Origin: Elusimicrobiales bacterium | GTDB lineage: Bacteria > Elusimicrobiota > Elusimicrobia > Elusimicrobiales > UBA9959 | Assembly (NCBI GenBank): GCA_036171915.1 | Contig: JAVHRY010000138.1 | Location: 2,890 to 66,889, forward strand | Reading direction: 5' to 3' | Length of the DNA: 64,000 nucleotides | Part shown: positions 22,684 to 61,700 of the stretch, one piece after another | How the letters are laid out: the number at the start of each line of letters is the position of its first letter | How positions within the stretch are numbered: position 1 is the first letter of the stretch | Translations under genes and position numbers: made by a program | The notes under the pieces: generated by a model | Told to the model about the DNA's origin: nothing | Databases searched by the model: none | Seen by the model: the letters and a program-made list of their open reading frames with translations, nothing else

Positions 22684-22695
22684 AAATAGCTCCGC

Positions 22696-24970: not shown

Positions 24971-24982
24971 TGTTGCGGGTCC

Positions 24983-25390: not shown

Positions 25391-25423
25391 GGAACCAGGA
25401 CCCCATCCTTCATCTTTCAGCCT

Positions 25424-26287: not shown

Positions 26288-26295
26288 GGCGGACT

Positions 26296-27261: not shown

Positions 27262-27278
27262 GGAGTTGCCTGGAACGG

Positions 27279-27797: not shown

Positions 27798-28054
27798 CAT
27801 CGTATCCTCCATAAGCTGTGTCTAAAACTAAAACAAGGCCATTCCCCCCTTACAAAGCGGGAATGTCTTGTTAATCATATTTTATTACATTTCCGCGCGG
27901 GTTGGGGGACGAATCTTTAAGAGGCCTGCGAATCGGGGAGCGAATGCCGGAAAACGCTTATTTAAACGAATCAATCTTTATTTTTCCAATTCGCGGCCTT
28001 TAAAGCGGCTTCGGCCGGGTGACTATCCGCGCAGACCTGTGCTATCATTATCGC

Positions 28055-31447: not shown

Positions 31448-31500
31448 AAGACCATCTCCTGCCTTGAAACTCTTCCCGCTTTGCCCCTTCCGGTTGACGC

Positions 31501-34716: not shown

Positions 34717-34778
34717 AACGGAACTCTCCGAGCTTAAAGCTCTTCTACGCTCCCCGCTTCCTGCCCTGCGTCTTCTGT

Positions 34779-37700: not shown

Positions 37701-40700
37701 CTCGTTTATGTACACGTTCGATATCTGCGGCTGCGCCGCGGCCTGGTTGGAGAGGGCGGAAATATTCCCGGCCTTGTCGCCGGTTTTTACGGCGAAATAA
37801 TAGGTCTTGCCCGTATCCAGGCCGTACAGCACGCGCGCCTCGGGCTGGCCGGCCGCGGCCGGGCTCCAGGCCTGCGCGTAGGTGCTGGCCGCGCTGAACA
37901 GCGCGTCGGTGGTGATCTGGAACGTGGCGGACTTCACTACATAGTAACCGCCGTTATCATCTCCGGCGGCGCCGTCGTCCCCGGGGGCGGCCCAGGACAG
38001 CTGCACGGAGCCGCGCACCGGGCCGGCGGCCGCGGCGAGGCCGGCTATGGCAGCGGGCGGCTGCGTATCTTTCAGCACCTTGAAAGCGTCCACCAGCGTA
38101 GTGGTGCTGAAAGCGTTGTCGATGGCGCGCACGCTTATATAGTTGGTGCCGTTCCCGAGCAGGGCGAAGCTGAGCGCCCAGTTGGCCTGCGAAAGGGACC
38201 CCAGGGTACCGGAAGAAATAACCGTCCAGTCCAGGGTCTGGATGCCGGTCTGCGAGGGCCCGCTGGAGGCTGAGTATTCCAGGCTCCTCAGCTGCGAACC
38301 TCCCACGTCGGCGAAGTCCACGTCGTAACCGGGCCCCTGGTCCGAATTGTGCCACGCGGAATCGTACCCGGCGTCCAGGTTATTGGTGATGGTCGGGGGC
38401 ACGGTATCCTTTTGGACGTTGAAAGCGTCCAGGATATAAGAAGAATAATTCCCGGCATTGTCGCGCGCCCGGACGGCCACGTAATTCTGGCCCTGCGGCA
38501 GCAGGTCGAAGGTACCCTGGGTAAGCGGCCAGTCGGCGGAATAGGAATCGGAGTTGATGCCGGAGACCTGGTCGGTCCAATCCTGCAGCAGCGTGCCGCC
38601 GCCGCCGGCCTGCGAGAAGATCCTGGTCTGGATGGACGCCAGGTGCGACCCGCCAGGATCCGTGGCGTCTATATTATAAGCAACGCGCGTATTGCACCAG
38701 TTGTCATCCCCCGGCTGGTTGTCTATGACCGTGGGCGGCACCGGGTCCTGCCTGTCGAAGGCCAGCGCCGCGGACTCGTGGTTGAAGTCGGACAGCGTCG
38801 TCGTGTGCTGGAAATTGGAGGAAGCGGTGGTGCCGGCCCAGGCCGAACCTCCCCACAGGGTGGTCTTAAGTATGCCCAGGGTATCGATGCCCATAGCCGT
38901 TATCTTGCTGGTATTAGGGTCGGGAACAAGCGCCAGCCAGTTTATATTCCCGGCGAAAGTGGTATTAGTGTTTACCGTAGCGCCCGAAAGCGTGGCCGGG
39001 GTCCAGGCGCCGTTAAGCCAGGTAGCGTAAGTCAGGCGCGTAGGATTGGCGGAGGTGACGGCCGCGGTCATGAACTTGCCGGACTGCGCCTCCCAGGCGG
39101 CGTCGGCGATGCGCGAGGCGTTGGCGCGCCCGGTGCCGGAAGTCGGTAGGGCCGACCAGGCCTCCACGGTAAGCGTAGGCCGCCAGATAGCCGCTGCCCA
39201 GGTGGAGGAGCCGTTTATGGAAGTCATTCCAAGGCGGTTCGTAGTAGGGTCGGCCGCCAGCCTGAGCCAGTTGCCGGCCGCGGCGATGGCCGGCCCGGTC
39301 TTGACGGTTTCCCAGGCCGCGGAAGTGGAACGCCAGATACGGTAGTTGGTGGTAACGCCGGTGCCCCAGAGCGCCAGCGCGTTGCCCGTCAGGGATTCCC
39401 AGTCGCCGTCGAAGCATTCCTCGGTGGCTATGGAAGCGGCGGTGGTGAGGTTCTGGTTGGACACCCAGGCGGAGCCGTTCCAGACGGCCGCGGTGATGTC
39501 GGAATTGGCGTCCAGCGCCATCAGCAGGATGCGGTTGGTGCCCGGCATGGGCTTCAGGCGCACCCAGTTGATAACCCCGGTTAGCGAGGCAAGCGGCAGC
39601 GAGGCCGGCGGCGCCACCCAGGCGGAAGAGGTGGCCGACCAGACCGCGTAGGTTACGGCGCCGGCGGCGCCGTTATAGTAGGCGGCCAGCATCCTGCCTG
39701 AAAGATTCTCTGGCGCCAGGTCGAACTTGCGCGTGGCCGAGCCGCCCGGAGCTGGCGCCGGAGAAGGCGTGACATCGGTCCAGGAGGAGTTTAGGCCGTC
39801 CCAGTTCAGGAACTTCAGGCTGTTGTCCGAAGCGAGGAAGCCGCCCAGTTTCGAGTTGGCCACCACGGACACGGATTTAAGTTCGGTCCAGAGCACATTG
39901 GCTGCCGTGGCCGCGGCATCCGTTTCGGCGTGCCAGGTTTCAGGAGTCCAGCTGCGGTATTTTGGGATAGTGGAAGCCCCCGAGCCGTAAACTATCATGC
40001 CGGCGGCCGCGCCCGCCGGAGTGGCGCTGGAGGTGGGCACGTTGGAAATGGCCCCCGCATTCCCCATCTCATCCACAGCTTTTATAGCGATAGAGTAGGT
40101 GGTGCCGGGAACTAGCCCGTCCATCACGCGGCTCTCGGCCTGGCCGTAGGCCAGAGGGATCCATTCCTGCGTGAAGGTGGAAACCGCGGGCGCGCTGAAA
40201 TTACCAGCGGTTATAAGCGCTGTAGAGTAGCGGACTATATAAGAGGTCGCCGTCCCGGCATTGGTAAAGCCTTTGACTCCTTCTCCCGGAGCTGTCCAGG
40301 CAAGCGCTATCTGGCCCTGGAAATCGGCCATGGCCGCGGAGAGGTCGGAGATGGCGCCGGGCGGGGTTTGGTCCACGCCTGCGTAGGTGGAGGTCATATT
40401 ACTGAGCGGCCCCATGTTACCGGCTTTGTCTACGCCCTCTACGGCGATATAATAGGTGACGCCCGCGGTAAGACCGCTCATGGTAAGCCCTTCCAGCGAA
40501 CCGGCGGCTTTCGGAGCCAGCGTGGATACGTACACCGAAGCGGCGTCAAAAGCGGCCTGATCGGCGAAGGCGTCGGTCCCATAGCGTATCAGGTAGTAGC
40601 TGGCATTGCCGATAAGCGCGTTATCCCCGGGAGCGTTCCATCTGGCGTACAGGTCGCCTTCGCCGGCCGGGCCGGTCTTGGCGAGGGAGGCCAGCGTGGT

Positions 40701-43700
40701 TATGGCGGAAGGCGGCACGGTATCTTTCAGTATATAGAAAACATCCACGGCGGCGGAGGAATGCCCGAGGGCGTCCCACGCGGTTACGGTTATATAGCTG
40801 GTACCCGGGGGCAGCAGCAGCCAGTCGGCGCCGTAAACTCCCCAGTCCTGCGTATAGGAGGACATGGGCGGCCCGGAGAAGATCGGCGTGGACGGCAGGA
40901 CCTGGCCGCCTGTATGCCCGGGGCCGGCCCAGGCCTCGTAGGCGGCGCTGGAAACGCCGATGCTGGCGTCGGCGAAATCTATGTTGAAGACCGGGCCCGG
41001 GTTGAGCCTGTACCAGGTGGTGTCCCCGTTCTGCAGGTCCGTAATGACCGGCGCGGCGGTGTCTTTCTTAACGTAGAAGACGTCCCCGGCTTCGGCCTGG
41101 TTGCCGGCGGCATCCCAGGCGCGCACCGAGATATAATTGAGGCCCGGCGCCAGGTTATTGAAATCCACTGGCCAGTCCGCGGTGTAGGCGGCGGTGGGCG
41201 CGGCGAAGATCTGCGTCCAGCCCTTCACCGGGGAACCTGTCTGGCCGGGCCCGGTCCAGGCGGCATAGGCGGCGCTGGACACCCCGGAGCCGCCGTCGGC
41301 GAAATCCACGTCGTAAAGAGATCCGGAGACGTCGCGCCAGGTATCGGACCCCGCCTGGTTGTCGTAGATAGAGGGCGCCGTCGTATCTTTCAGCACCCTG
41401 AACGCGTCCGTTATGGTGTAGGAACTGCCGGCATTGTCCCACACGCGCACGCTCACGTAATTGGTGGCGCTGTCGGCAAGGCCGTTCCAGATGCCCAGGG
41501 ACAGGGGCCAGGGCACGGAGTAAGTGTTGGCGTTGATGGCCGTGATATTATCCGTCCAGTCGAAGGCTGTTATGCCGGTGCCGCCGGGGCCGGTGCTGGC
41601 CTTAAGCTGGAACCTGGAGATCCGCGAGCCGCCGGTGTCGCCGAAAGAAACGCTGTAGGCGCCGCCGTTGGAATTCCGCCAGGAGAATTCGCCCGCCTGG
41701 CTGCTGACGGCCGTCGGGGGCGTGGTGTCTTTCTTTATAAAGAAAGCGTCCTTGAGCACCGCGGTGGAACCAGCTATATCCCAGGCGCGCACGCTTATGT
41801 AGTTCGTCACGCCCTCCCTGAGGGCGGCAAAATCCACCGGCCAGTCCGCCGTGTAGGACAGGCCGCCGCCCGGAGCGGCAATGGTGGTCCAGCCCTTCAC
41901 TCCGCCGTCGGCCGAAGCCTGCGCGGTGCTGGCGCTGTACTCAAAAGCAGCCAGCCCGCTCATGGCGTCGTTAAAGTCAAGGTTATAATTGCGGCCTGCA
42001 TTGAGCCAAGCGGCGTCGCCCCCGGCTTCTCCGTTAGCGAAGAAAGGCGTTGTCGTATCCTTGAGAATAAAGAACGGCTGGACTCCGTACGCAAAGGTGC
42101 TGCCTGCCGCGTCCCAGACCTGCACGGAAATATAATTGGTCCCCTCGCCCAGCAGGTCCCATAGCCCCTGGGGCACCGGCAGCCCGGAGGCGTAAGAGTC
42201 AGAGTTGATCCCGGTAAGGGCGTCGGACCAGTCAAAATACCACGGCCCCAGCGTGCCCGAGTTCGGCGAAGCCCGGAGCTGCACTTTAGAGAGCCTGGAG
42301 CCGCCGGTATCGGTAAAAGTCACGTTATAGACCGTTCCCGAGCTGCGGCGCCAGTAAGAGTCCCCGGCCTGGCTGCCGGCCAGCGCCGGCGGGGTGGTGT
42401 CCTTCAGCACGAAGAACGCGTCCACCACGGTGGAGGTGTTGCCTGCCACATCGTAAGCCCGCAGGGAAATGTAATTAGTCACGTTCTCCATCAGCAGCGT
42501 AAAGGAAGAGGCGGGAAGGGCGAAACCGCCGGTTAAAGAACCCGAATTTATCCCGGCCTGTATGACCGTCCAATTAAAGAGGTAGGGGCCGGTGCCGGCG
42601 TTAGTGGAAGCCCGCACCTCGAGCCCGGACAGCAGCGAGCCGCCGGCATCGGCCAGGTTTATGTTGTAAACGGTGCCCGGCCCGTTGCGCCAGGCCAGGT
42701 CCCCGCCGGCCGCGTTATTGGCCACCTGGGGCGCTACCGTATCCTTAAACACGTAGAACACATCGGGCAGTTCCGCGTAGAACCCGGCCTGGTTATAGGC
42801 GCGCACCGACACGTAGTTGTAGTAGCCGCTGAGCATGGCGTTAAAAGCCGCGGCGGGCAGGGGCCAGTCCGTAGAATAGGCATAAGCATTAAGCCCCGTA
42901 ACGGCGGCCGTCCAGCCGGAGGTGAACGGCCCCAGGTTGCCGGGCAGCGTGGAAGAGCGCACTTCGAAGCGGTCCAGCGGCGAACCGCCCAGCGCGGCCG
43001 CGGAAATTTTATAAAGCCCGTTATTAAGGGAGCGCCAGGCGTCGTCCCCCGTCTGATTATCGGTCAGTGAAACCGCCTGCGTGTCCTTGCGTATATAGAA
43101 TGCTCCGACCGTAGCGGAAGAGGAGCCCGCGCCGTCCCAGGCGCGTACGGAAATGTAGGAAGTGCCGCTTGAAAGCAGGCTCCACATCTGGCTGGTAAGC
43201 TGCCAGTCGGCGGTATAGGACTGGGCATTTATCCCGGAGGCCAGCGTGGTCCAGTCGAACAGCGGCGTACCGTGAGCCGCCGCGTCCGTGGTGGCCTTCA
43301 CCTGGAAGTAGTCCATCCCGGAACCGCCGGCATCCTGGAAATGCACGCTATACAAGCCGGTATTGGCGGAACGCCAGACATTATCCCCGGCCTGGCCGTT
43401 CAGCACGGAAGGCGGGGTAGTGTCCTTCCTGACTGAATACACGTCCGCCTGCTGGGCGCTGTTGCCGGCGTTATCGTAGACGCGCACCGACACGTAATTG
43501 GGGCCTTCGTTAAGCGTGCTGAAGTCCGGGCCCCAGGGCAGGCTGTAATAAGTAGCGTTAACGGTCAGGCGGTCTGTCCAGTCGCGTATCACCGTGCCGG
43601 TGCCGGCGGGGCCGGAGGTTATCCTGGTCTGGAACCGGTCTATCTTTGACCCGCCCAGGTCGGTAAAACCCACGTTATAGACAGGCCCCGGGTCGGCGGC

Positions 43701-46700
43701 GCGCCAGACATTGTCGTCGGGCTGGTTGTCCTGGATGGCCGGGTTGGTTATATCCTTGAGAATATAGAAGGCGTCGTTGGCCGTCCGGCTGCTGCCCAGC
43801 ATGTCGTAGGCGCGCACCGACACATAGTTCGTCGCGGTCTCCGCCAGGGTGAAGAAGTCCACCGGCCAATCCGCGGGATAAGAGGCCGCGCCGGCCGCCG
43901 TGAAGATCACGGTCCAGTCCTTGAGCACGGAGCCGCCGCCGGCCGGCTGAGAGGTTATGCGGTACTGCGCCGTGGCGAGCCCGGCGCCCAGGTCCTCAAA
44001 ATTCACGTCATAGAGCGTGCCCGAAGTCCTGCGCCAGACGTTATCCCCGGCCTGAACGACCGTCACAGAAGGGGCGGAGGTGTCTTTGCGCACCACGAAA
44101 GCGTCCGCGGCCGCGGAAGAAAGGGCTACGCGGTCGAAAGCGCGCACCGACACGTAGTTGAGGCCCTCTGCGAGCGCCGCGAAGTCCAGCGCCCAGTCGG
44201 CCGGCGCGTAAAGCGTGCCGGTGGAAGAGAGGAGGTCGGTCCAGTCCTTCAGCACCGTACCCGCCCCGGCCGGGGCCGAGGTCACGCGGTACTGCGCGGT
44301 AGTCACCCCTGAAGTCAGGTCGCGGAAATCCACGTTGAAGACCGCGCCCGGATCGGCCACCAGCCAGGCGGTGGGGCTGACCTGGTTGTTGCTTATCAGC
44401 GGGCTGGAGGTATCCACGGTGAAGGCCCTGGTGGCCATATCGGCGGAATAGTTGCCGGCGCGGTCGAACGCCCTGGCACGCCAGTAATAGTTGCCGTCGG
44501 CAACATTAGCCAGCGAGGCCTGCGAGACAGCCGTAACGGACGAAGCGTAAACAGAGGAGAAGTCCTGGTAAAGGGAGGCCTCGAGGACGTAGCCGGCCGC
44601 GCCTGACCGCAGGTCCGAAGCGTCGGTCCAGTCGAAGGCCGCGGTAGCCGTAGAATAGGCGGCCTTGTCGGCGGGAGAGACCGCGGCCACGGCGGAGGGC
44701 GGGGTAGTGTCTTTCAAAATATAGAACGCGTCCGCGGCCGCGGAGCTCTGCGCGAGCAGGTCGAAGGCGCGCACCGTGACGTAACCGGTAGCCCATTCCT
44801 GGAGCGCCGCGAAGTCCGCTGGCCAGGGCGCGGTATAGGAAGCCGCGCCGCCGGGCGAAGCTATGTCGGTCCAGTCCTTCAGCACGGCCCCGCCCTGCGC
44901 GGGCTGCGAGGTTATCCGGTATTGCGCCGTGGCGAGCCCCGAGAGCGCGTCGTAGAAAGACACATTATAAGCCTTGCCGGCCGCGCCCTGCCAGGCCGTA
45001 TCCCCGCCCTGGTTCAACCCGAGGGAAGGGGGCGAAGTATCCTTCAGCACGTAGAAAGCGTTATTAAGGACGGAAAAACTGGGCTGCAGGTCGTAGACGC
45101 GCAGGGAAATATAATTCTTGCCCGGCGCCAGGGCGTCGAAAACCGCCTGGGGCAGCGCCCAGTTGGCGGAATAAGCCGTGGAGCCGATATTCCAGGCCGC
45201 GCTGGTCCAGGCTACCAGGTAGGCGGGCGCGGCCGCGGAGGTGGCGGCGGTGACCTGGAAATAGTTCAGGTTATACCCGGACTCCGACTGGAAGTCCACG
45301 TTATAGAGCCCGTCGTTAAGATTGCGCCAGGCGTTGTCGCCGGCCTGTCCGTTTATGATGGAGGGCCCGGACCCTTCCTTGTATATGCTTAGCGCGTCGT
45401 TGTAGTAGGTGGTGTTCCCGGCCAGGTCGTAAGCGCGCACCGAGATATAGGAAGTCGCCAGGTTCGGCAGCGCCAGGTAGTTTACCGGCCAGGCCGCCGT
45501 ATAAGCGGGCGCGTTTATGTTGGCCGCTATATCGGTCCAGGGGATTATCTCCCCCCCGGCGCGGCCCGGCGCGGTCCAGGCCGAGTACTGGGCCTTGGAC
45601 AGCAGCGAGCCGCCGGTATCGGCAAAAGTTACGTTGACCGCGTCCACGTCCGCCTGGCTGGCGGCCAGCGGGATATTCGCCTGGTTATCGGCCACGGTGG
45701 GCGCCGTGGTGTCTTTATTTATGTAAAAAGCGTCGGGCAGCGTAGTAAGCTGGCCCAACCGGTCATAAACCCGCACCGACACATAATTGGTACCCTGGGC
45801 CAGCAGGTTCCAGTTAGCCGCCGAAAGCCCCCAGTTGGCGCCGTAAAGCTGGACATTAAGCCCGGAAGCGAGGTCCGACCAGTCCACCAGGGTAGCGCCG
45901 CCCTGCGCCGGCAGCGAATTGACCCGGTACTGTATGGTCGCCACGCCGGAGTAAAGGTCCCTGAAATCCACGTCGTAAACAGCGCCGGGATTAGCCGCGC
46001 GCCAGACGGCGTCCCCGGCCTGGTTATTGATAATGTCCGGGCCGTAAGTATCTTTGAGCACGGTGAACAAGTCGGCGCGGACCGCGGTGGAGCCGGCCAC
46101 GTCCCAGGCCCTGGCGGAGATATAATTCGTGCCGGCCCCGAGCAGGGCGAAATTCACGCCCCAGGGAACGGAGTAGGCCAGCCTGGGAGTGCCGGAGGAG
46201 ATAAGGGTCCAGGCCAGTGAATTGGCCCCGGTCTGTCCGGGCCCGCTCCAGGCCGAGTACTCCATCGTGTCCAGGCCGGTAAGGTTGTCGGCAAAGGTGA
46301 CGTTATAGGTAGCGCCGCCTCCGGAGTTGCGCCAGAAAGCTTCTCCGGACTGGTAGTCAGTTATAACAGGCGGGACCGTGTCCGCTATTACCCTGAACGA
46401 GGAACTATACCCGGAATAGTTGCCGGCATTATCTGCCGCCTTGACGCGCCAATAGTACGTGGTCCCGGCGGAGAGGGCGCCGGTCTGCTGCGAAACGGAA
46501 GGGGCGGCGGAGTAGGCCGGCGGGGCGAACCCGGCGGCGGTGGAAACCTCCAGCGAATAGCCATAGATGCCGGAAGAACCGTCCGAAGAATCCGACCAGT
46601 CGAACAGCGGCCCGAGCGTGGCGGCGGGCGCGAGATCGGAAGGAGAGAGAAGCGAAGGCGCAGACGGCGGCGTAGTGTCTTTTTTTACATAAAAGGCGTC

Positions 46701-49700
46701 GTCCTGCTCGGACATGTTGCCGGCATTGTCGTAAACACGCAACGAGACCCGGCCCACGCCTTCGGGCAGGGCAGTGAAGGTGGAGGCGGCCAGGGCCCAG
46801 TCATAGGGATAGGCGTTGGCGTTTATCCCGGAAACCGGCGCGTACCAGTCCGCCACCAGCGTCCCGGTCTGCGCCGGTCCGGTCGTCAGTTTTACCTCGA
46901 AGCGCGAAAGCGCCGATCCCCCGGCGTCGGCGAAGTGCACGTTGTAGGCACCGTTATTGACGGAACGCCAGGTATCGTCCCCGGACTGGCCATTGGCTAT
47001 GGACGGGGCCGTAATATCCTTTTTCACATAGAAGACGTCGCTGGCCGTGGTGGTGGCGCCGCTCACGTCCCAGACGCGCACTGAAACGTAGTTCGTGCCG
47101 TTCTCGGCGAGAGCGGAGAAAGCCACGGACCAGTCGGAGTTGTAGGCCGGGGAGTTTATGTTAGAAGCGATATAGGTCCAGTCCTTTATCAGCGTTCCGT
47201 TCTGCCCGGGCAGAGAGGTGACCTTATACTGGGCGGCGGAAAGGCCGGAGGCCCCGGCGTCCTCGAAATGCACATTATACAGGGTACCGGGCGCCGAACG
47301 CCAGGTGTCATCCCCGGCCTGGTTGTCGGCCACGCGCGGCGCGGCGGTGGATTTCCTAACATAGAACACGTCGCTAAGCGCCGAGGACAGGCCAGCGTTG
47401 TCGTAAGCCCTTACTGAGATGTAGTTCAGGCCGCTGGCCAGCGAGTCGAACACGGAAGCCGGCAGGGCCCAGCCGCCGGGGTAGAGATCCGCGCCTATGC
47501 CCGCGGCCACGGTGGTCCAGTCCGCCGTGACCAGGCCGGTCTGGGCGGCCCCGGTAGCGGCTTTCACCTGGAAGTAGGACAGCTTGGAACCGCCGGAATC
47601 GGCGAAGCTGACATCATAGAGCCCGGTGTTGGAGGCGCGCCAGGCGTCGTCGCCGGACTGGCTGTCGGTTATGCCGGGCGGGGTGGTGTCTTTTTTTATA
47701 TAGAAGACGTCGTCCAGCGCCGCGGAGTTGCCGGCGTTGTCGTAAACCCGGGCGGACACATAGGAAACGCCCTGCGGCAGGTTCAGCCAGGTGGAGATGC
47801 CCAGGTCGAAGTTGTCCGTATAGGCCGCGGCGTTGAGACCAGCGGCCCGGTCGAACCAGTTGGAGATAAGGCCGCCGGTCTGGTTCGGGCCGGACATTAT
47901 CTTAAGCTGGAAATTGGAGAGCAGCGACGCGCCCGTATCCTGGAAGTCCACGTCGAACTGCGCCCCGGGGACCGCGCGCCAGGCGTCGTCGCCGGGCTGG
48001 TTGTCCACTATGTTGGGGGCGTAGACGTCCTTTTTCACGTAGAACACGTCGGGGGCGGTAACGGTGGACCCCGCGGCGTCCCAGACCCGCACGGAGATGA
48101 AATTAGTGCCATCGCCTAGCAGGCCGAAATTAACGCCCCAGGCCGCGCCGTAGGCGTCGGCGCCCAGCGGCGTGGAGGTTATTATGGTCCACGGGGTAGC
48201 GTTGGCGCCGGTCAGCCCTGGGCCGGACCAGGCCGAGTATTCCAGCGATTCTATATGGGAACCGCCGGTATCGGCAAAAGCCACGTTATAGACCGCGCCG
48301 GGGTTGGAGGAATGCCAGGCGTTGTCCGCCGCCTGGTTGTTCTGCACCGAAGGCGGCGCGGTGTCGACGCGCACCGCCCAGGTAGAGGAATAGTTGCCGT
48401 AGTTGCCGGCATTATCCAGCGCGCGGGCGCGCCAGTAGTAGCCGCCGGAAGCCATAGTCTGCGAATACTGCGACAGCGTTTTCAGCGCGCTGGAGTAGAC
48501 GACGGCGAAATCGGAGGAGGTGGCGACATAGACCTCGTAGCCGTAGACGCCGGAACCGGAGTCGGAGGCGTCGCTCCAGTCAAAAGTCACGTTGGCGTTA
48601 TTGGTTATAGTGCCGCTGGCAGGGGAAACCGGCGCGACGGCGGAAGGCGCGGAGGTGTCCTTGCGCACATAAAAAACATCATTGAGCAGCGAAACGTTGC
48701 CTGCCCCGTCGTAAGCCCTGACGGAAACATAGGACTGGCCCTCGGGCAGCGCGGCCCAGGTGGAAGCCCCGAGCGCGAAATCGTCTGTGTAGGAAACCGC
48801 GTTTATCCCGGTCACCCTGTCGAACCAATTGGCCAGCACGGTGCCGCTCTGGTTGGGCCCGGAGGTTATCTTGAGCTGGAACCTGTCCAGCAGCGAGCCG
48901 CCCGCGTCGGCGAAATCCACGTTATAAAGAGTGCCGGCCGAGGCCAGCCAGGAATCGCCGCCGGGCTGGTTGTCCGTTATCACGGGCGCCTGCGCGTCCT
49001 TGCGGATATAGAACACGTCGTTGGTGACGGTAAGGTTGCCGGCGCGGTCATAAGACTGCACTGAAACGTAGTTGGTGCCGTTCTGCAGCAGCGCCCAATT
49101 GGCGGGAGAAAGGCTCCAGGGCGCCGCGTAAGAAGGCGAAGCAATGCCCGAAGCTATAGGCCCGGCCGCGAAGGGAACCAACTGCGCCCCGGTACGGCCG
49201 GTGGAACTGTAGACCGAGTAGCCGGCGGAATCCAGCAGGGAGCCGCCAGCGTCCGTAAAGCCCACGGCGTAGGCCGTGCCCGAAGCGTTGCGCCAGGCAT
49301 TGTCCCCGCTCTGGCCGTTTACCGTCACCGGCAGCACAGTATCCACCAGCACGGTATAGGCGGAGGTATAAGCGGAACCGTTCCCGACCAGGTCCGCGGC
49401 GCGCGCGCGCCAGTAATACAGCGCGCTGGGAAGAACCGCCGAAGTGGACTCCGAGACCGAAGGCGAAGCGCTGTAGACCGGGGTAGTGAAATCGACAGAA
49501 GTCGCCACCTGAAGCTCGTAGTTGTTTACGCCGCTGGCCAGGTCCGAAGAATTTCCCCAATCGAAGTAGACAACCGGGTTTTTAAGGAAAGCCCCATCGG
49601 CGGGCAAAAGCAGCGCGGGTACTGTAGGCGGCGTAGTGTCTTTCTTGACATAGAAAGCGTCCGTCACGGGATTAAGGGACACATTATCCGAGCCGTCAGT

Positions 49701-52700: not shown

Positions 52701-55700
52701 ACCGGCGCTCAAAGCCCAATCCGTTACGTAGGAGTTCAGCCCGGAGGGCGAAGGTGAAATATCGGTCCAGGCCGCGATCTCCGTCCCGGCCCGGCCGGTG
52801 GAGGACCAGATATTGTACTGGGCCTTCGAAAGCCTGGAACCGCCGGCATCGTCGAAATGCACATTATAGACGCCGGTGTTGGCGGGACGCCAGACATTAT
52901 CCCCGGCCTGGTTATTCGCCGCGGCGGGCGGCACTGTATCCTTCAGCACATAGAAAACGTCGGTACTTACCGCCGCGTTCCCGGCCAGGTCGTAAGCGCG
53001 CGCCGAGATATAGGCCGTGGCGCCGGAATTGAGCGCGGAGAAATCCACGCCCCAGGGGTTGGCGTAGGCCGGGGCGGAGATGCCGGCCGCTATATCCGTC
53101 CAGCCCACCAGGTCGCCGGAAGCCGTGCCCGGCGCCGAGGAGGCGGAATACTGCGCCTTGGAAAGCAGGGAGAAGCCGTCGGTGAAGCCGACGTTGTAGA
53201 CAGCTCCCGGGTCCGAGGACCGCCAGTTGTTATCGCCGGGCTGGTTGTTCGCAAAAAGCGGCGCCTCGGTATCCTTCTTAATGTAGAACACGTCGTTGGC
53301 CGTGGTAGTTGTGCCGGCCAGGTTCCAGGCGCGCACGCTGACATAGTTAAAACTGGATTTCAAGGCCGAGAAATCCACGGGCCAGTCGGCCGTGTAGTCG
53401 GCGGCGTTGATGTTTACGGCGATATTAGTCCAGTCCTTAAGGACGGCGCCGCCCTGGGAGCCAGCCGAGGTGACCTTGTACTGCGCCGCTGAAAGCAAAG
53501 AGCCGCCGGCGGCGCTGAAATCCACGTTATAGAGCGTACCGGGAGAATTGCGCCAGGCGGCGTCCCCGGTCAGGTTTTTCACCACCGACGGGGCGGTAAG
53601 GTCAACGCTGGTAACGGCTTCCGGGGCGGTATCGGTGCCGGGCGGGTCGGTTTCATCCCTGTTACCCGCCTTATCGTAGACAATAAGCCTGAAGCCGGCC
53701 GCGCCGCCGGAAGGGGCGGTGAAAGCGATGGGTGAGAAATTGAAAGTGGAACCGAACTGGGTCCAGGCATACGGGACCTGCGTCGCATACGTGTAGTAGA
53801 GCTTCACATACTGCACCCCGGCGGGTCCCGCGTCGGCAGCTGAATAAGGCACGCTGAAATTCAGGGACCCGGTATATGCCGGAGGAGAGACGGCGCCGGA
53901 CGGGTTCTGCGTATCTTTAAGCACATAGAAAGCGTCGCCCAGGTCGGCGTAGGCGCCGGCGTTATCATAAACGCGCAGGGAAATATAATTTGTGCCGGGC
54001 AGCAGCAGCTGCCACAGGCCGGGCGCCATGGCCAACGGTCCGGGATAGGAAGAGGAATCCAGGCCGGTTACATTATCGGTCCAGCCGAAGGCCGAAGCGC
54101 CGGTGCCGGCGGTGCCGGTGCTGGCTTTCAACTGCACTTTCGAAAGCAGGGAGCCGCCCAGGTCTGTGAAAGCCACGCTATAACCGCCGCTGTCGGAGTT
54201 CCTCCAGACGGAATCCCCGGCCTGGCTGTTATTGACGGCCGGGGGAACCGTGTCCTTAAGCACGTAAAAAGCGTCGGTCAGCGTGGAGCTGGACCCGGCA
54301 TTATCTAAGGCCGCCACCGACACATAAGCGGTGACCCCGCTCCGGATGGCGTCCCAGAGGCCCGCGGTAAGCGGCCAGGGAGCGGAAGCTGAGGCGGCGT
54401 TCAGGCCGGTCAGCACCGGTGTCCAATCCGCCAGGACCGTCCCGGTCTGCCCCGTGCCGGTAGTTATCTTCACCTGCACCTGGTCCAGCAGCGAACCTCC
54501 GGCGTCGGCAAAACGCACGTCGTAGACGGCTGAATTGGCCGAGCGCCAGGCCCCGTCGCCGCCCTGGTAATTATTTATGACCGGCGGCGTAACGTCCTTT
54601 CGCACGTAGAAAACGTCTGAGGTCTCCCTGTCGTTGCCTGCCTTGTCGTAAGCGCGCACGGACACATAGGTCTGGCCTTCCGGCAAGGCGGACCAAAGGC
54701 CATAAGTCAGCGTCCAGGGGCCGGGATACGCGGAAGAATTTATGCCAAAGGCGACATCCGTCCAATCCGCTATCACCGTCCCCAGCTGGTTCTGGCCGGA
54801 AACCAGCCTGACCTGGAACTTATCCAGCAGGGAACCGCCGGCGTCGGCGAACCCCACATTATAAAGCGTGCCGGAGGAATTGCGCCAGGCGTCGTCGCCG
54901 GGCTGGTTGTCGGCGATCGTCGGCATGGTTACGTCCTTGAACACCCTAAAGACGTCGCTGGATACGGAGACGAGGTTCCGCTGGTCGTAAGCCCGCACGG
55001 AAATATAGTTGGTGACGTTCTCCGCCAGGGTGGAGAAGAGCACGGACCAGTTATCGGTATAATAAGTGGGATAGCCGGTCAGGACGTCCACAGTCTGCCA
55101 GGCACTTATGGGATAAGCGAGCGCCGGCGCCGTGCTTACCCGGTACTGCAGCGTCGAAAGGCCCGAGGCCCTGTCGAAGAAATCCACGTTATATGCCGCG
55201 CCGGGGGAACCCTGCCAGGCATTATCCCCGGCCTGGTTATTTACTATCACGGGCGGGGTGGTGTCCTTCAATACGTAGAAGGCGTCCTGCGCGTTTGCCG
55301 AGAGTCCGCCGCGGTCGAAAACCCGCACAGTAACATAGTTGGGCCCTTCCACGGCGGAGGCTAAATCTACGCCCCAATTGGCCGTGTAACTCTTTGTGCC
55401 GCCGGGGATATTGAAGATATCTGTCCAATCCTTCAGCAGCGCGCCGGCCTGCCCGGGCTGGGAATACAGGCGGTACTGCGCGGTTGCCGCGCCGGACTCC
55501 AGATCGCGGAAGTCCACGTCGTAGACCGCGCCGGGGTCGGTAAGCCGCCAAATATCGTCCCCGGCCTGGTTCACCACCACCTCTGGCTGCGCCGTATCTT
55601 TCCAGACCGTGAAAGCGTCGTAAGTGCTGCTGGAGAGCAGGGCCGCGTCGAAAACTTTCACCGAGATATAGGCGGTAACGCCGCTGGGGATGGAATCCCA

Positions 55701-58700
55701 GATGTCGGCCTGCAGCGGCCAGTCCGCGGTGTAGCTGCCGCCCGAGAGGTTTCCGGAGTCCGTCCAGTCGAGCAGATAAGGCGCGTAGTTGCCGGTATGC
55801 GTGGACGCCCTCAGCTGGTAGCGCAGCAGGCCGGACTCCTGGCCCGGATCGGTAAAGTCCACGTTATAGAGCCCCGTATTCCCGGAAAGATAGGCGGACG
55901 CCGCGGGCTGGTTATTGGCGAAAACCGGCGGCGTGGTATCCTTGCGCACGTAGAAAACGTCGTTGCGGGAGGAGGATAACCCTGCCTGGTCGTAGGCCCG
56001 CACGCTCACGTAGCCGCTGGTCCAGCTCTGGAGCGCGGCAAAATCTACAGGCCAATTCGTGGTATAAGAGGCCTGCCCCGCCGGGGTAGTAAAAATGTCG
56101 GTCCAGTCCTTTATCAGGATCCCCGTTTGAAGCGTGCCGGTGCTGATCCTGTACTGCGCCTGGGTCAGGCGGGAACCGGCGTCCGCGAAGTCCACGTTAT
56201 ATACAGAGCCGGCTGCGGAGCGCCAGACGTCGTCGCCGTTCTGCAGGTCGCTGATAGCCGGCGGCGTGGTATCTTTTTTTACATAGAACACATCTTCCAG
56301 CGTCATACTGGTGCCGGCCACGTTCCAGGCGCGCACAGTTATATAGTTGGTGGTTTCGTAGAGCGAATTATAGAAACCCGCCGGCAGCGCCCAATCGGCA
56401 TAATACGACTGGCCGGGGAGATCCCCTGCTTTTGTGAAGTCGGCAGTCATTACGCCGGTGCGGCCCGGCTGCGTCCAAGCCTGGATGGAGAAGGAACTCA
56501 GGTCCACGCCGGGATCGTTGCTTTCGAAATCCACGTTGTAAAAGCCGTTGTCGGAAGTGCGCCACACGCTGTCGCCTGACTGGTTGACTATTATGGATAT
56601 GGGGTGAGTAGTCCGGAACACCTTGAAGGCGTCCAGGTACGTGGAGGTATTGCCCGCCAGGTCCGTGGCGCGGACCGAGAAATAGTTGGTCGCCGGCAGC
56701 AGTTCGAGCGCGTAGAAGTCCACGTCCCAGTTCTGCGTGTAATAAGTGGCCCCGGCAAGCGTGGCGATATTGGTCCAGTCCTTCACCGGCGTCCCTGCTC
56801 CGGCGGGAGACGTGGACACCATGTACTGCGGGGCGGCTATACCCGAGCCGCCGCCGTCGAAGAAGTCCACATTGAAGATGGCCGCTGGATTTACGGAATA
56901 AGGTCCGAAGCCTTTGGTGGGCGTACTGACTATTACGATACTGGGGGCCACGGTGTCTTTCAGCACATAAAAGGCGTCGTTCACCTGCGCGGGGTTGTCA
57001 GCCTTATCGTAAGCCCGCACGCTGACATACCCGGTTGTACCGCTGGGAATGGCAAGGAAGTCCACGCCCCAGTTAGCGGTATATGCGGCCACACCTGCGG
57101 GCGCGGAAACGATATTGGTCCAGTCCCTGATCACCGTGCCGCTCTGGGCGGGCAGGGACGTAATGCGGTACTGCGCGGTGGTAAGGCCCGCGGTCAGGTC
57201 GCCGAAATCCACGTTATAGACGGCGCCGGGATCGGAGTTGTGCCAGGTATTGTCGCCGGCCTGGTTGTCGGTTATGGTCGGGGAGACATTGTCCTTTAAC
57301 ACGTAGAACACGTCCGGGAGGGAGGCGGAATGCCCCAGGCCGTCCACGGCGGCCACGCTAATATAGTTGGTGCCCTGCGCGAGCAGGTTGAAATCCACGG
57401 TCCAGGGAGCGGCGAACGAAGGCCCCGCCGCGCCGGGAATGACCGTGGGCGTTACCGGGTTAGTCCCGGTGAGCCCCGGGCCGCTCCAGGCTTCGTAGCT
57501 GACGGAGGCCAGGCCGGAATCCGCGTCGCCGAAACTCACGGTGTAGGTTGTGCCGCCAAAGCGCCGCCAGGTGTTGTCCCCTGACTGCCCGTCGGTAATA
57601 ACGGGGACCGACGTATCTTTCAGCACGTAGAACACGTCGGAAAGCGCGGTCGTGGAGCCGGCGTAATCCATGGCGCGCACGGAGATATAATTGGTGCCGG
57701 ACCTGAGGAGGCTCCAGACCGGGGCCGGCAGCTGCCAGCCGCCAGGGTAAGAAACCGCGTCTATGCCGGTGACGGCGTCGGTCCAGTCCGCCGCCAGCGT
57801 GCCGGTCTGCGCTGGACCGGTGGCAGCTTTCACCTGGAACCCGGAAAGCAGCGAACCGCCGATATCGGCGAAAGACACATTGTAAACCCCGGTATTGGCG
57901 TCGCGCCAGTTGGCGTCGCCGGGCTGGCTGTCGGTTACGGACGGGGCGGACGTGTCCTTAAGTATATAGAAAACATCGTCCTTCCCCTGCTGGTTGGCGG
58001 CGTTATCGTTCACGCGCACGGAAACATAAGAGATGCCGGCCGGGAGCGCGTTCCACTGCGCCTGGGTCAGTTTCCAGGGACCGGGATAAGAAGCTGAATT
58101 TATAGAACCCTGCTGCACGGCCCAGTCCTGCACCAGGGTTCCGGTCTGGCCGGAGCCGGTCGTTATTTTAATTTCAAAGTTTGAAAGCAGGGAGCCGCCG
58201 GCGTCGGTAAAGCCGACGGCATAAACGGTGCCGGAGGAATTGCGCCAGTTGTCGTCACCGAACTGGTTATCCGCCACTACCGGCAGAGTTTTGTCCTTGC
58301 TTATATAGAAAGCGTCGGCGTAGGTGGAGGTGTTGCCGGCCAGGTCGGTGAAGCGCACCGAGACATAGTTGGTAGCGGCCCCTTCGGCGAGCGCAGCGAA
58401 ATCCACGGACCAGGGGGAGGTGTAGGAAGCCGCGCCCAGCGGCGGGGCTGCGATAGGGTTCCAGCCCTTGCGCGGCGTTCCCTTCTGGCCCGGCTCCGAC
58501 CAGACGGAGTACTCCACGGTATTAAGCAATGACCCGCCGGTGTCGTAGAACTTCACGTCGTAAAGCTTGCCCGGGTCTTTCTGCCAGGCCGCGTCGCCGC
58601 CGGCCTGGAGGTTCTGCGCGTATGGCGCGGTAGTGTCCTTGTAAACGTAGAACACGTCGTTCAGCGCGGTGGTGGTGCCGGCCACGTCCCAGGCGCGCAC

Positions 58701-61700
58701 GGAAATATAATTTATCCCTTCGGCCAGCGCCGGCCAGGAAGAAACGGAGATCCCCCAGGGGCCGGGGTAGGAAGAAAGGTTGGCCGGGCCCGAAGAGATG
58801 AAGGTCCAGTCGATCTTTTTAACCCCGGTCTGCCCGGCCCCGGGATATGCCGTGTACTGGATGCTGTCCAGCTTCGAGCCGCCGGCGTCGGCGAAAGCGA
58901 CGTTGTAGATGCCGCCCGGGTTGGCGTTGCGCCAGGCGTCGTCCCCGGCCTGCGCGTCGGTGATAACGACCGGCACGGTATCCTTCAGCACGTAGAACAG
59001 GTCGTTGACGGAAGTGGAGGAGTTATTGACATTGTCGAAAACGCGCACGCTGACGTAACCGGTGGTGCCGCTGGGGATATTGTCCCAGACCGCGGTCGGC
59101 AGGGCCCAGGCCGAACCGTAGCCGGCGGAGTTTATGCCGGTCGCCACGCTGGTCCAGTCGGAAAGCAAAGTCCCGGTCTGCGAAGGGCCGGAGGTAACCT
59201 TGACCTGGAAATAGGACAAAAGCGAACCGCCAGCGTCGTTGAAGGTTATGTTGTACAGGCCGTTATTGGAATTGCGCCAGCGCGTATCCCCGGCCTGGCC
59301 ATCCGTTATTGTCGGGGTAGACAGGTCCACCAGCAGGGAACGGTAGGCGCTGAAAGCCGAGACGTTCCCCGCCGTGTCGTTCGACGCCGCGCGCCAGTAA
59401 TAAGTAGTCTGCGCGGCCAGCGGCACGAACGCCGCCGAGACCGCCGGCTGGCTGGAATACGAGATGGTGGTAAAATCAGTGGAAGTGGCCAATTGAAGCA
59501 GGTAATTGGCGGTGCGAGAAGCGCTATCGGCCGAGTCGCCCCAGTCGAAAGCCAGGTTAGCCAGGTTGGTCTTGTAGCCGTCGGCCGGTGAAATAAGCGA
59601 GGGAACTGCGGGCGGGGTGGTGTCCTTCAATATCCGGAAAGCGTCGACAACGCTTGTGGTATTACCGGCCACGTCGTAGAATTCCACGCTGATATAGTTG
59701 GTATTGTCGCCGCCCAGGCTGGCGAAAGCCACGGGCCAATCCGCGGTGTAGGCGGCGCCGGTCACCCCGGCTATGGTGGTGGAGGCTACCAGTACCGGCG
59801 GGGTCCCGCCGGGATTGGCGCGCGCCGCGTACTTGGCCCCGGCCAGGCGGGAGGCGCCGTCGGAGAAGTCGAAGTTGTAATTCCTGCCGGTATTGCGCCA
59901 GACGGAATCCCCGCCGGCCTCGCCGTTGACGTAAGCCGGCGGCGTGGTGTCCTTGAGCACCTTGAAAGCGTCGGTGATGGTGGTGGTATTGCCGGCGATG
60001 TCGTACAGTTCGATGGAAATATAGTTGGTAGCGTCGCCGGCCAGCCCGGCGAAGTTCAGCGCCCAGTCCGTGGCATAGGAAGCGCCGGACACGCCGGGGA
60101 TGGCGGTGGTGGAGATTTGCATGGCCCCGGCCCCGCCCGCCGCGGTCCGCGCCGCGTAAACCGCCCCGGCCAGCCTGGAATAGGGATCGGCGAAATCCAC
60201 GTTGTAGCTCTTTCCGATATTGCGCCAGACAAGGTCTCCCCCCGCCTCCCCGTTAGTGAAAGTGGGGGCCACGGTATCTTTCAGCACCTTGAAAGCGTCC
60301 GAAAGCGTTACGGTGTTAGAGGAGTAATCCACGGCCCGCACCGAGATATAGTTGGTGGTCCAGCTGGCGAGGCTGGTCCAGAAACCGGCTGGCAGGGCCC
60401 AGTCCGTATAATAATAGGTGGCGTTCACGTTTAATACGGCGTCCACCCAGCCGCCGCCGAAGTCCGTGCCGGTCTGGCCCGTGCCGGAAGTGGCGCGCAC
60501 CTGGAACTTGGAGATCAGCGAGCCGCCGGCGTCGTCGAAGTCCACGTTGTAAACGCCGTTATTAGTATTGCGCCACACCTGGTCCCCAGTCCCCATCCTG
60601 CCGGTGATGACCGGCGTGGAAAGGTCCACCCTGAAAGCGCGCGTGGCCGACCACAGGCCGGTATTGCCGGCGTTGTCCAGCGCGCGCACGCGCCAGAAAT
60701 ACGGGTTCTGCGCCAGGCCCGCCGGCGCGGCCGCGGCGGCCAGCGGGGCGGAACTGAAGGTAACGGTTGTAAAATCTGCCGCGGTCGCCAGCTGCACCTC
60801 GTAATTCTTCAGGCCGGACCCGTCGATGTCGGCAACCGCTTCCCAGCTCAGCGCCGGGGAACCGTTGTTGAGGTTGGCGTTATTTACCGGCAGGATGGCG
60901 GCCATGGCCGGGGCGGGAGGGCTGGAATAGTCCACGCCGAAGGAAGGGGCGGCAAAGTTTATCCAGCCGCCGCGGCCGCCGTCGCCCAGCGCCGCCACAC
61001 GCCATTTATACTGGCTGCCGGAAGTGATATTTGCCGAGCTGAGGTTTACGGTCAGCGGGCTGCCGCCGTAAACGCTGAAGCCGCCGGTAGAAAGGCCTAT
61101 GCCGTCGAAGGCCGACGCGTTAGGCTTGATCTCCGCCACAAGCGCCAAATTATCCGCGTTCATGGAACTGGCCAGCACGCCCTCGAAGGTGATAGCGCGG
61201 TTATTTGTCCAGCCCCCGGTAGTTAATCCCGAGCCGCCGGCATACTGCGCAGGACTTACCGGCAATTTGGGGTAGGGCACAAAAGTGTAGGTCACCCCCA
61301 CGCGGCCCCCCAGCACGCTATTGGCGCTGCCGGCATAATTCACCTTCACCAGGGTAGTGGTGCTGGTGACGGGCGACATGTTCTGGTAGAACCTCGAAAT
61401 AGTGGTGGTTTCTGTAATAGAGCGGTGATTAACGGTCTGCGGGCCGTTGCCGTTGAAATTCACCGTATCAGTGAAGGCAGCGCCGCCCGTGGAAAGCACG
61501 TTGGCGTAGACATAGGTCCCGCGCATGGTGTCGGTGCCGTACGCCTCGGGGTGATAAAGACCGACGTAGGAAGTGTATGCCTTGGCCGTATTTACTGTAT
61601 TGGAGCCGGCAAGCGCTTCGTAGTACGTGGTATGGGCGGCTTCGTTGGCGGAAGTGTAGGTTATTATCAGCTCGCCGCCCGGCGCCCCGGAAGCCGCGTT

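What the first reader, a model, noticed from the sequence alone, without database searches (positions are those of the whole stretch)
38728..60630. Higher-order duplication inside the giant gene: [~24 modules]-[FN3 x2]-[~425-aa Trp-rich module], twice
Seen by manual parse of the translation:
- Copies 1-24 (51924..60630) are followed by an FN3 pair (51250..51923) and Trp-rich module A (49975..51250).
- Copies 25-48 (40719..49975) are followed by a second FN3 pair (40010..40718) and module B (38728..40010).
- Both super-units end with the same junction (...PPTV + DNQPGDD.W).

The equal copy number and identical capping order suggest an ancient duplication of a ~3,500-aa super-repeat. Gradual single-module slippage would not give this pattern. 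The copies are well diverged at protein level, so the duplication is old and both halves have stayed open.
Basis: seen in the sequence. Interest (0 to 1): 0.7.

Follow-up and report, generated by a model that had tools for sequence, protein, structure and literature searches.

The report
Ancient 27-domain super-repeat in giant protein
A 9,403-residue secreted protein of an uncultured Elusimicrobia bacterium is built from two copies of one very old block of about 3,750 residues (27 immunoglobulin-like domains, two FN3 domains and a lectin-like beta-propeller), and the number of domains in each block has stayed almost fixed across distantly related bacteria.

Summary
ORF 34779..62990 (-) encodes 9,403 aa. 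HMM segmentation gives 24 + 24 copies of a ~113-aa Ig-like module (M).

The interpretation, an ancient en-bloc duplication, is supported but needs correcting.
- **Unit size.** The arrays also hold other Ig-like domains (X, Y). Counting every domain slot, the unit is X + 26 slots + FN3x2 + W + one M. This occurs twice: aa 687-4449 and aa 4450-8193.
- **End-to-end alignment.** The two units align at 39% identity (2,435 bits); the best shifted register scores 1,475 bits.
- **Slot register.** Slot-by-slot similarity peaks only at the register counted back from the FN3 pair (z = 4.9). The same register is best in eight genomes tested separately, including Endomicrobia-like MAGs.
- **Equal M counts.** "24 = 24 M" is partly accidental: relative L014 has 22 vs 25 M. 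Slot counts are what is conserved: array B has 28 slots in nearly all lineages, and array A has 27 in the window's clade and L014.
- **Domain folds.** W is predicted to be a beta-propeller closest to Photorhabdus fucose lectins. M is an Ig-like sandwich.

The protein is most likely a fixed-length fibrillar adhesin-like surface protein; this function is inferred, not shown.

The parts
34779..62990 (-). Giant ORF, 9,403 aa. It has an N-terminal Sec-type signal peptide (read by eye: MKFRSDKKK...LLSAPQAQA|E) and a ~640-aa N-terminal region with no family match.
49644..60932 (-). Super-unit 1 (aa 687-4449, 3,763 aa): X + 26 Ig-like slots + FN3x2 + W-A + module B01.
38412..49643 (-). Super-unit 2 (aa 4450-8193, 3,744 aa): X + 26 Ig-like slots + FN3x2 + W-B + module C01. 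It aligns end to end with super-unit 1 at 39% identity.
51933..60932 (-). Array A, 27 slots: X (aa 687-787), A01-A03, X (1122-1220), A04-A19, Y (3025-3128), A20-A24. It contains 24 M modules.
51252..51932 (-). FN3 pair A (aa 3687-3913).
49989..51251 (-). W-A (aa 3914-4334): Trp-rich beta-propeller, predicted with pLDDT 89 and pTM 0.92. Its fold is closest to the PLL/PHL propeller lectins.
40728..49988 (-). Array B, 28 slots: B01, X (aa 4450-4548), B02-B03, X (4777-4874), B04-B08, X (5437-5535), B09-B13, X (6093-6191), B14-B24. It contains 24 M modules.
40011..40727 (-). FN3 pair B (aa 7422-7660). It is 41% identical to pair A, and FN3-1 pairs with FN3-1.
38751..40010 (-). W-B (aa 7661-8080), 31% identical to W-A.
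37725..38750 (-). Modules C01 and C02 plus a single FN3 (aa 8081-8422). This may be a short third, incomplete unit.
34782..37724 (-). C-terminal part: two lamin-tail domains (aa ~8423-8700), an unassigned stretch, and a PQQ/BamB-like beta-propeller (aa ~9060-9340; this match is below Pfam's curated cut-off).
29909..34716 (-). Conserved downstream partners. The first is a ~1,070-aa PQQ-like beta-propeller/FN3 protein with a T9SS-type C-terminal sorting domain; its likely real start is Met62 of ORF 31501..34899. The second is a 531-aa PorV-like outer-membrane barrel (29909..31504).

Best explanation
The gene encodes a giant secreted, fibre-like surface protein of an Elusimicrobiales bacterium. 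Its central ~7,500 residues arose by one ancient tandem duplication of a ~3,750-aa super-unit.

The super-unit is an X-type Ig domain, 26 further Ig-like domains (mostly the ~113-aa M type), two FN3 domains, a ~420-aa Trp-rich beta-propeller (W) and one more M.

The duplication predates the split of the Elusimicrobia lineages sampled here. Since then:
- The two copies have diverged to ~39% identity without being homogenised.
- The number of domain slots has been held almost constant: 27 in array A and 1 + 27 in array B.
- Individual slots have occasionally switched type (M <-> X) or been overwritten by a neighbouring module.

**Shown:** the architecture, the homology and register of the two units, and their conservation in orthologues.

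**Inferred:** the Ig-like arrays act as rigid spacers of defined length (about 27 domains each). They would hold two lectin-like propellers at set distances along an extracellular fibre, so the protein would work like a fibrillar adhesin with a built-in ruler. A conserved neighbouring PorV-like barrel and a T9SS-CTD protein may handle or anchor it.
For: - **Architecture.** The domain string is X M3 X M16 Y M5 FF W M X M2 X M5 X M5 X M11 FF W MM F.
- **Caps.** The caps are collinear at 35% identity, E = 1e-88. FN3-1 pairs with FN3-1 (41%, against 36% for the crossed pairing).
- **Modules after W.** B01 and C01, the modules that follow each W, are mutual best matches.
- **Whole units.** They align end to end at 39.3% identity and 2,435 bits. 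The best shifted register scores 1,475 bits.
- **Slot register.** Offset +1 gives z = 4.87 and p = 0.003 after correcting for all offsets. 17 of 21 pairs are positive. Partners rank 1-4 of 24 in at least one direction through A06-A18.
- **Replication.** The same register is best in six genomes separately (z 3.3-5.1). It was predicted beforehand from the cap position for L022 and L024 and is best there too (z ~4.0-4.1).
- **Arrays are intermixed.** Mean identity is 0.405 within A, 0.395 within B and 0.402 between them. This rules out independent growth of each array from its own founder module.
- **Orthology.** There is one-to-one orthology of every module with L001-L003 and mostly collinear orthology with L004-L009. 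Within-gene DNA repeats are at most 79% identical.
- **Slot counts.** Array B has 28 slots in the window clade, L014, L016, L022, L024 and L027. Array A has 27 in the window clade and L014.
- **Folds.** W is a propeller (pLDDT 89); the top PDB matches are the PLL/PHL lectins (E ~1e-9 to 1e-10, target-normalised TM ~0.7). W homologues sit at the C-terminus of pilin-like proteins. M is an Ig-like sandwich (pLDDT 95).
- **Gene neighbourhood.** The downstream genes are conserved in L019 and L025.
Against: - The in-register excess is small: 45.5% against a 41.6% background.
- It is absent at the array ends. A01-B02, A02-B03, A20-B20 and A23-B23 are at or below background.
- Several of the best-supported sister pairs are out of register: A20-B07 (bootstrap 0.85), A09-B24 and A08-B06. 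Later module exchange or replacement must therefore be invoked.
- Except for the leading X, the X and Y positions do not coincide between the two units in this genome.
- The W tree does not cleanly separate W-A from W-B outside the Elusimicrobiales. The age relative to other phyla is therefore uncertain.
- The function is inferred from fold similarity at 11-12% identity and from analogy only. No anchor or secretion signal other than the N-terminal signal peptide was found in the giant protein itself.
Confidence: 0.78

Rival explanations
1. Only the cap (FN3-FN3-W plus the next M) was duplicated. The two Ig arrays grew independently by single-module slippage, and their similar sizes are coincidence.
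For: - The M-index diagonal is only marginal (p ~0.015, not significant over offsets).
- The X/Y punctuation differs between the arrays.
- M counts are unequal in L014 (22 vs 25), and array A is shorter in L024 (22 slots).
- A02/A03 is a clear local tandem duplicate.
Against: - The arrays are fully intermixed in module subtype (within-array and between-array identities are equal).
- Neighbouring modules are barely more alike than distant ones.
- A single slot register stands out in eight genomes.
- The end-to-end alignment beats shifted registers by ~1,000 bits.
Confidence: 0.07
2. The arrays share no en-bloc ancestry. Similar position-dependent selection (for example mechanical or binding requirements at a given distance from the propeller) made modules at equivalent distances from the cap converge.
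For: - The excess similarity is small (about 4 identity points).
- Slot number is clearly under selection, so position-specific constraints do exist.
Against: - Ten or more consecutive slots have their in-register partner ranked between 1 and 4 of 24 in at least one direction. The signal is also present in both sequence halves and in both odd and even columns. This looks like descent rather than convergence at a few sites.
- The adjoining caps are unquestionably homologous and collinear.
Confidence: 0.07
3. Ongoing in-register recombination or gene conversion between the two arrays, rather than one old duplication, keeps them aligned.
For: - Slot-preserving overwriting does occur. Slots 5-7 of array A are A02/A03-like in L004, L006 and L010. 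M and X swap at fixed slots between lineages.
- Out-of-register close pairs exist, such as A20-B07.
Against: - Orthologous slots are far more alike across genomes (65-96%) than paralogous slots within a genome (~45%).
- No within-gene DNA repeat exceeds 79% identity.
- Exchange between the arrays has therefore not happened since these lineages split.
Confidence: 0.05

Closest known systems
Titin and nebulin super-repeats (eukaryotic muscle ruler proteins; from my own knowledge)
   Same: Both show higher-order duplication of multi-domain blocks of Ig/FN3-type domains. A domain resembles the domain at the same position of the other block more than it resembles its neighbours. Domain number is conserved and thought to set a length.
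   Different: The sequences are unrelated and the organisms differ: this protein is extracellular and bacterial. Here the block is 27 domains long and occurs only twice, whereas titin and nebulin have 7- or 11-domain blocks repeated many times. Each block here ends in a beta-propeller.
Bacterial fibrillar or giant adhesins (e.g. SiiE, MpIBP, LapA, Ebh; from my own knowledge, with SiiE appearing as a weak fold match)
   Same: Both are secreted proteins of thousands of residues. Long runs of Ig-like domains act as an extender for ligand-binding domains.
   Different: - No RTX or T1SS signals and no cell-wall anchor were found.
- The modules are old and ~40% identical, not near-identical.
- Domain number is fixed across phylum-level distances rather than varying between strains.
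- The putative binding domains sit mid-chain.
PLL/PHL/BP39L seven-bladed beta-propeller lectins (PDB 5c9l, 5mxg, 6rgr, 6gxr)
   Same: These are the best structural matches of the W model (E 4e-10 to 1e-7, target-normalised TM 0.65-0.70). Both are Trp-rich repeated blades.
   Different: Identity is 11-12%, and there is no sequence-level match to any PDB chain. W has about 31 strands, or roughly eight blades. Sugar binding was not tested.
C-terminal domains of prepilin-type (N_methyl, 'PilV'-annotated) proteins of CPR bacteria and archaea (P0007, P0020, P0024-P0028)
   Same: They contain the same W domain by sequence (E 1e-14 to 1e-27, 25-34% identity over 58-75% of W).
   Different: Those are ~560-670-aa pilin-like proteins with one W at the end of a pilin. 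Here W is embedded twice in a 9,403-aa Ig-repeat protein with a Sec signal.

Membership tests
Intragenic super-repeat (en-bloc duplication) | The two units are collinear over their whole length. | tested here: met
   a single HSP covers 1-3763 vs 2-3744 at 39.3% identity and 2,435 bits. The next register scores 1,475 bits.
Intragenic super-repeat (en-bloc duplication) | A domain is closer to the same-position domain of the other unit than to other domains. | tested here: met
   the cap-anchored slot register is the unique best offset in eight genomes (z 3.3-5.1). The effect is small, about +4 identity points.
Intragenic super-repeat (en-bloc duplication) | Both units have the same domain number and the same order of capping domains. 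| tested here: met
   each unit has 27 slots from the leading X to the FN3 pair, followed by FN3-FN3-W-M.
FN3 (PF00041) | Pfam match above the gathering score. | tested here: met
   44.5 and 55.4 bits against a cut-off of 25.
Ig_Rha78A_N (PF25788), the X domains | Pfam match above the gathering score. | tested here: met
   73 bits against a cut-off of 27.4 in the first half of the protein, and 28.4 bits in the second half.
Known Ig-like Pfam family for the M module | Pfam, NCBIfam or PDB sequence match for a single module. | tested here: inconclusive
   - Whole-protein sums for Big_3_3, Glucodextran_B and Big_13 reach 25-53 bits, but no single stretch passes.
- There is no NCBIfam hit above cut-off.
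- There is no PDB sequence hit.
- The fold is an Ig-like sandwich.
PLL-type beta-propeller lectins | Sequence-level homology and conserved sugar-binding residues. | tested here: not met
   no PDB sequence match at E <= 1. There is fold similarity only.
PLL-type beta-propeller lectins | Carbohydrate binding. | not testable with these tools
   This needs glycan arrays or ITC on purified W.
T9SS cargo protein | C-terminal Por_Secre_tail sorting domain. | tested here: not met
   there is no such hit in the giant protein at E <= 0.01. The downstream 1,132-aa neighbour has it.
RTX/T1SS giant adhesins | C-terminal RTX repeats or a T1SS signal. | tested here: not met
   there is no RTX-type family among the hits. 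The protein has an N-terminal signal-peptide-like sequence instead.

The most novel reading that the evidence does not exclude
The two 27-domain arrays are molecular rulers. Selection fixes the number of Ig-like domains, not their type or sequence, so that two lectin-like propellers sit at defined distances (roughly 100 nm apart, assuming ~4 nm per domain) on an extracellular fibre about as long as these very small cells. The fibre would be anchored or handled by the conserved PorV-like barrel and T9SS-CTD partner. This would be a bacterial, extracellular counterpart of titin/nebulin-type length determination, conserved across several phyla.
Probability: 0.2. Interest if true: 0.75.

Novelty: new variant of a known kind. 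Interest (0 to 1): 0.55.

Why it matters
Repeat arrays in bacterial surface proteins are usually young, nearly identical and variable in number. Here a 27-domain block was duplicated once, very long ago, and has been kept open. Each domain has its own orthologue, and the slot count is fixed (28 in array B across Elusimicrobia, Endomicrobia-like, Firestonebacteria-labelled and Ignavibacteria-labelled MAGs) even though individual slots change type.

This points to selection on physical length, an idea well known from muscle proteins but not from bacterial fibres. It also gives a concrete, testable handle on an uncharacterised giant protein family in a poorly known phylum.

Two domain families are defined in passing. 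Neither has a confident Pfam or NCBIfam assignment: M has only weak summed Ig-like matches and W has none.
- M, an Ig-like module.
- W, a lectin-like propeller that is shared with pilin-like proteins of CPR bacteria and archaea.

Tried and rejected
- **M-index comparison (A_i vs B_i).** It was only marginal (p 0.013-0.018, not significant over offsets). It was replaced by the slot-level test once X and Y were counted.
- **Subtype clustering of modules.** Three to six clusters gave no significant positional match.
- **Module-level Needleman-Wunsch and Smith-Waterman tests.** They were significant, but they allow gaps. The gaps turned out to be exactly the X slots, which led to the ungapped slot test.
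- **Exact look-up of neighbouring proteins to find the source contig.** Not on record.
- **Source genome.** It is also not the representative in the genome collection; the best W-A match is 75%.
- **NJ tree of W domains.** W-A of the Elusimicrobiales forms a clade, but W-A of L022, L024 and L027 and both Firestonebacteria W domains group with W-B. The tree therefore could not date the duplication across phyla.
- **PDB sequence searches for M and W.** Nothing was found.
- **NCBIfam.** Nothing above cut-off.
- **Literature searches.** Only general statements that Elusimicrobia are rich in huge proteins (PMC11573180). No description of this family was found.
- **Test of the register in L012.** The arrays are too short (6 pairs) and the result was not significant.

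Full report
**1. What is there**

The window carries one uninterrupted ORF on the minus strand, 34779..62990, encoding 9,403 aa. G+C content is 61-64% across the gene, slightly above the flanks.

The N-terminus looks like a Sec signal peptide (basic stretch, hydrophobic core...AQA|E; read by eye).

Pfam recognises only the following:
- two FN3 regions
- Ig_Rha78A_N-like domains
- weak summed Ig-like matches
- two lamin-tail domains
- a C-terminal PQQ/BamB-like propeller, below the curated cut-off

No T9SS sorting domain and no RTX repeats were found in the giant protein.

**2. Segmentation**

An HMM built from the gene's own modules finds 50 strong copies of a ~113-aa module M: 24 + 24 + 2. 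With extra HMMs for the other domain types, the full string is:

X M3 X M16 Y M5 | FN3 FN3 W | M X M2 X M5 X M5 X M11 | FN3 FN3 W | M M FN3, followed by LTD x2 and the C-terminal propeller.

**3. The caps are paralogous**

- FN3-FN3-W of unit A aligns collinearly with that of unit B at 35% identity, E = 1e-88.
- The FN3 pairs match in order: 41% for 1-1/2-2 against 36% crossed.
- The modules that follow each W (B01, C01) are mutual best matches at 51-55% (bootstrap 0.61).

**4. Relatives**

A scan of one genome per species with a W-domain profile returned 79 loci. The closest are Elusimicrobiales MAGs:
- L001, L002 and L003: 75, 70 and 66% identity to W-A
- L004-L010: 50-55%
- then other Elusimicrobiota, Endomicrobia-like, Firestonebacteria-, Caldiserica- and Ignavibacteria-labelled MAGs

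The window's own genome is not in the collections searched.

L001-L003 have exactly the same domain string. Every module has a one-to-one orthologue there: 65-96% identity on position, against a runner-up module at 43-71% (A03 is a marginal exception, because its tandem twin A02 scores about the same). L004-L009 are mostly collinear.

Within the gene, no DNA repeat exceeds 79% identity. The modules are therefore individually old, stable units, with no concerted evolution and no sign of a collapsed assembly.

**5. Slot counts, not M counts, are conserved**

Counting every Ig-like domain (M, X or Y) as a slot gives:

| Array | Slots | Where |
|---|---|---|
| A, including its leading X | 27 | window, L001, L002, L004, L009 and the distant L014 |
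| B | 28 | window clade, L014, L016 (all M), L022, L024, L027 |
| A | 22 | L024 |
| A | 12-13 | E. minutum-like L012/L013 |
| B | 14 | E. minutum-like L012/L013 |

- The L014 strings are X M X M X M X M14 Y M5 (array A) and M X M14 X M7 X M3 (array B).
- Between lineages, particular slots switch between M and X.
- In L004, L006 and L010, array-A slots 5-7 are overwritten by A02/A03-like modules.
- "24 = 24 M" is therefore not the conserved quantity: L014 has 22 and 25 M. The equality that matters is 27 slots versus 1 + 27 slots.

**6. Is there positional correspondence?**

Comparing A_i with B_i by M index gives only a marginal signal: 0.433 vs 0.416 +/- 0.007, p ~0.013, not significant over offsets.

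Module-level dynamic programming was significant:
- z 3-3.8 against permutation
- first of 48 circular-shift and reversal arrangements
- a local block A04-A19 <-> B05-B18/20 at z 4-4.8

The gaps it introduced fall exactly on X slots of array B. An ungapped slot-level comparison then shows one register standing alone: A-slot s <-> B-slot s+1. This is the register counted back from the FN3 pair. It pairs the leading X of A with the X at B-slot 2 and leaves B01 over.

Results for this register:
- mean centred identity +3.75 points over 21 M-M pairs
- z = 4.87; p < 2e-4; p = 0.003 after maximising over 26 offsets
- all other offsets between -2.4 and +1.3 points
- 17 of 21 pairs positive
- raw identity 45.5% against 41.6% background
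- partners ranked 1-4 of 24 in at least one direction through the centre of the arrays (A06-A18)

The same offset is best in the window, L001, L002, L004, L009 and L014 analysed separately (z 3.3-5.1). In L022 and L024, where array A is shorter, the cap-anchored register was predicted beforehand and is again the best offset (z 4.0-4.1).

As a plain check, BLASTP of aa 687-4449 against aa 4450-8193 gives a single end-to-end alignment (39.3% identity, 3,866 columns, 2,435 bits). The next register reaches 1,475 bits.

Within-array and between-array identities are equal (0.405, 0.395, 0.402). This excludes independent growth of each array from its own founder.

**7. Complications**

- The register signal is weak at both ends of the arrays.
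- Some well-supported sister pairs are out of register: A20-B07, A09-B24 and A08-B06.
- Some pairs are local: A02-A03, B03-B05 and A10-A13.
- Later slot-preserving replacement and local duplication have therefore overprinted the original pattern.
- A neighbour-joining tree of W domains does not separate W-A from W-B outside the Elusimicrobiales. I can only say that the duplication predates the common ancestor of the window clade, L014, L022 and L024.

**8. What the parts are**

- **W.** The model has pLDDT 89 and pTM 0.92. It is all-beta with about 31 strands, i.e. a propeller of roughly eight blades built from four ~105-aa double-blade repeats. Its best PDB matches are the Photorhabdus PLL/PHL and Burkholderia BP39L propeller lectins and the fungal fucose lectins (E 4e-10 to 1e-7, target-normalised TM up to 0.70, 11-12% identity). 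There is no sequence-level PDB relative.
- **W homologues.** By sequence, most are C-terminal domains of ~560-670-aa prepilin-type proteins of CPR bacteria and archaea.
- **M.** The model has pLDDT 95 and is an Ig-like sandwich with only weak PDB matches.
- **N-terminal ~640 aa.** It matches only "hypothetical protein, partial" entries of Elusimicrobiota and Endomicrobia, plus two ~1,100-aa PQQ-propeller proteins.
- **Downstream genes.** A PQQ-propeller/FN3 protein with a T9SS-type sorting domain is followed by a PorV-like barrel. The same order is found behind the giant gene in L019 and L025.

**9. Most likely mechanism**

*Shown:* a single old en-bloc duplication of a 27-slot array plus cap; long divergence without homogenisation; strong conservation of slot number.

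*Inferred:* a secreted, fibre-like adhesin-type protein in which two fixed-length Ig rods space two lectin-like propellers. It may be handled by the conserved PorV-like/CTD partners.

Confidence in the duplication is about 0.8. Confidence in the adhesin/ruler function is about 0.3-0.4.

**10. Novelty**

Higher-order repeats are well known in titin and nebulin, and giant Ig-repeat adhesins are well known in bacteria (my own knowledge). The literature tools returned no description of this family. They returned only the general remark that Elusimicrobia are rich in huge proteins (PMC11573180).

I rate it a new variant of a known kind. Interest is moderate to high for protein-evolution and Elusimicrobia specialists.

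Noticed in passing
window 29909-34716 (-); L019 5683-9553; L025 15314-20153: A conserved gene pair lies directly downstream of the giant gene. The first gene encodes a PQQ-like beta-propeller/FN3 protein with a T9SS-type Por_Secre_tail domain. The second encodes a ~514-534-aa PorV-like (UPF0164/FadL-like) outer-membrane barrel. The order is the same in distant Elusimicrobia and Endomicrobiales MAGs. In L019 and L025 an NTP_transf_5 gene follows; the 340-aa ORF at that place in the window has no Pfam hit.
   Followed up: partly
L004, L009, L014, L022, L024, L027 compared with window aa 687-7421: At fixed slots, the domain type switches between M and X in different lineages (array A slots 3, 5, 7 and 15, counting the leading X as slot 1; array B slots 4, 5, 11, 17, 18 and 23-27). 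In L004, L006 and L010, array-A slots 5-7 are A02/A03-like. Slot content is replaced while slot number is kept.
   Followed up: partly
L012 and L013 (Elusimicrobium minutum-like MAGs): Both arrays are about halved. Array B has 14 slots (M X M2 X M5 X M3, retaining orthologues of B01, B18-B20 and B23-B24). Array A has 12-13 slots; a frameshift in L013 makes the count uncertain. The two arrays may have shrunk by the same number of slots.
   Followed up: partly
window 49989-51251 and 38751-40010 (-); proteins P0007, P0020, P0024-P0028: The W propeller domain has no Pfam family. It recurs as the C-terminal domain of prepilin-type (N_methyl, 'PilV') proteins in CPR bacteria, and tblastn finds it in many archaeal MAGs (Bathyarchaeia, Woesearchaeota, Methanosarcinaceae).
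   Followed up: partly
window 60921-62990 (-), aa 1-690: The N-terminal region has no family match. It is shared (34-36% identity over ~70% of its length) with ~1,100-aa proteins that carry PQQ-type propellers (P0041, P0043). Visually it contains several ~150-aa units ending in '..ITYEYEDD' or '..ITYEADAA'-like motifs, although BLAST self-comparison found no significant internal repeat.
   Followed up: partly
window 31501-34899 (-): The listed ORF starts at a TTG that overlaps the end of the giant gene by 121 nt. Its first ~60 residues are Arg/Gly-rich and unlike a protein. The real start is probably Met62 (MEKDRIKNN..., followed by a signal-peptide-like stretch), which removes the overlap.
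   Followed up: partly
window 53607-53918 (-), aa 3025-3128: The Y domain is a ~104-aa Ig-like domain of a third type. It always sits five M modules before the first FN3 pair, in every lineage examined, including L022 and L024. It has no Pfam or NCBIfam match. Its in-register partner in array B is an M (B19) in the window but an X in L022, L024 and L027.
   Followed up: partly
window 19047-27812 (-): Housekeeping genes lie beside the locus: lepA, ptsI (PEP-utilising enzyme), rapZ, hprK and hpf (ribosome hibernation factor). The region is therefore chromosomal rather than part of a mobile element.
   Followed up: no
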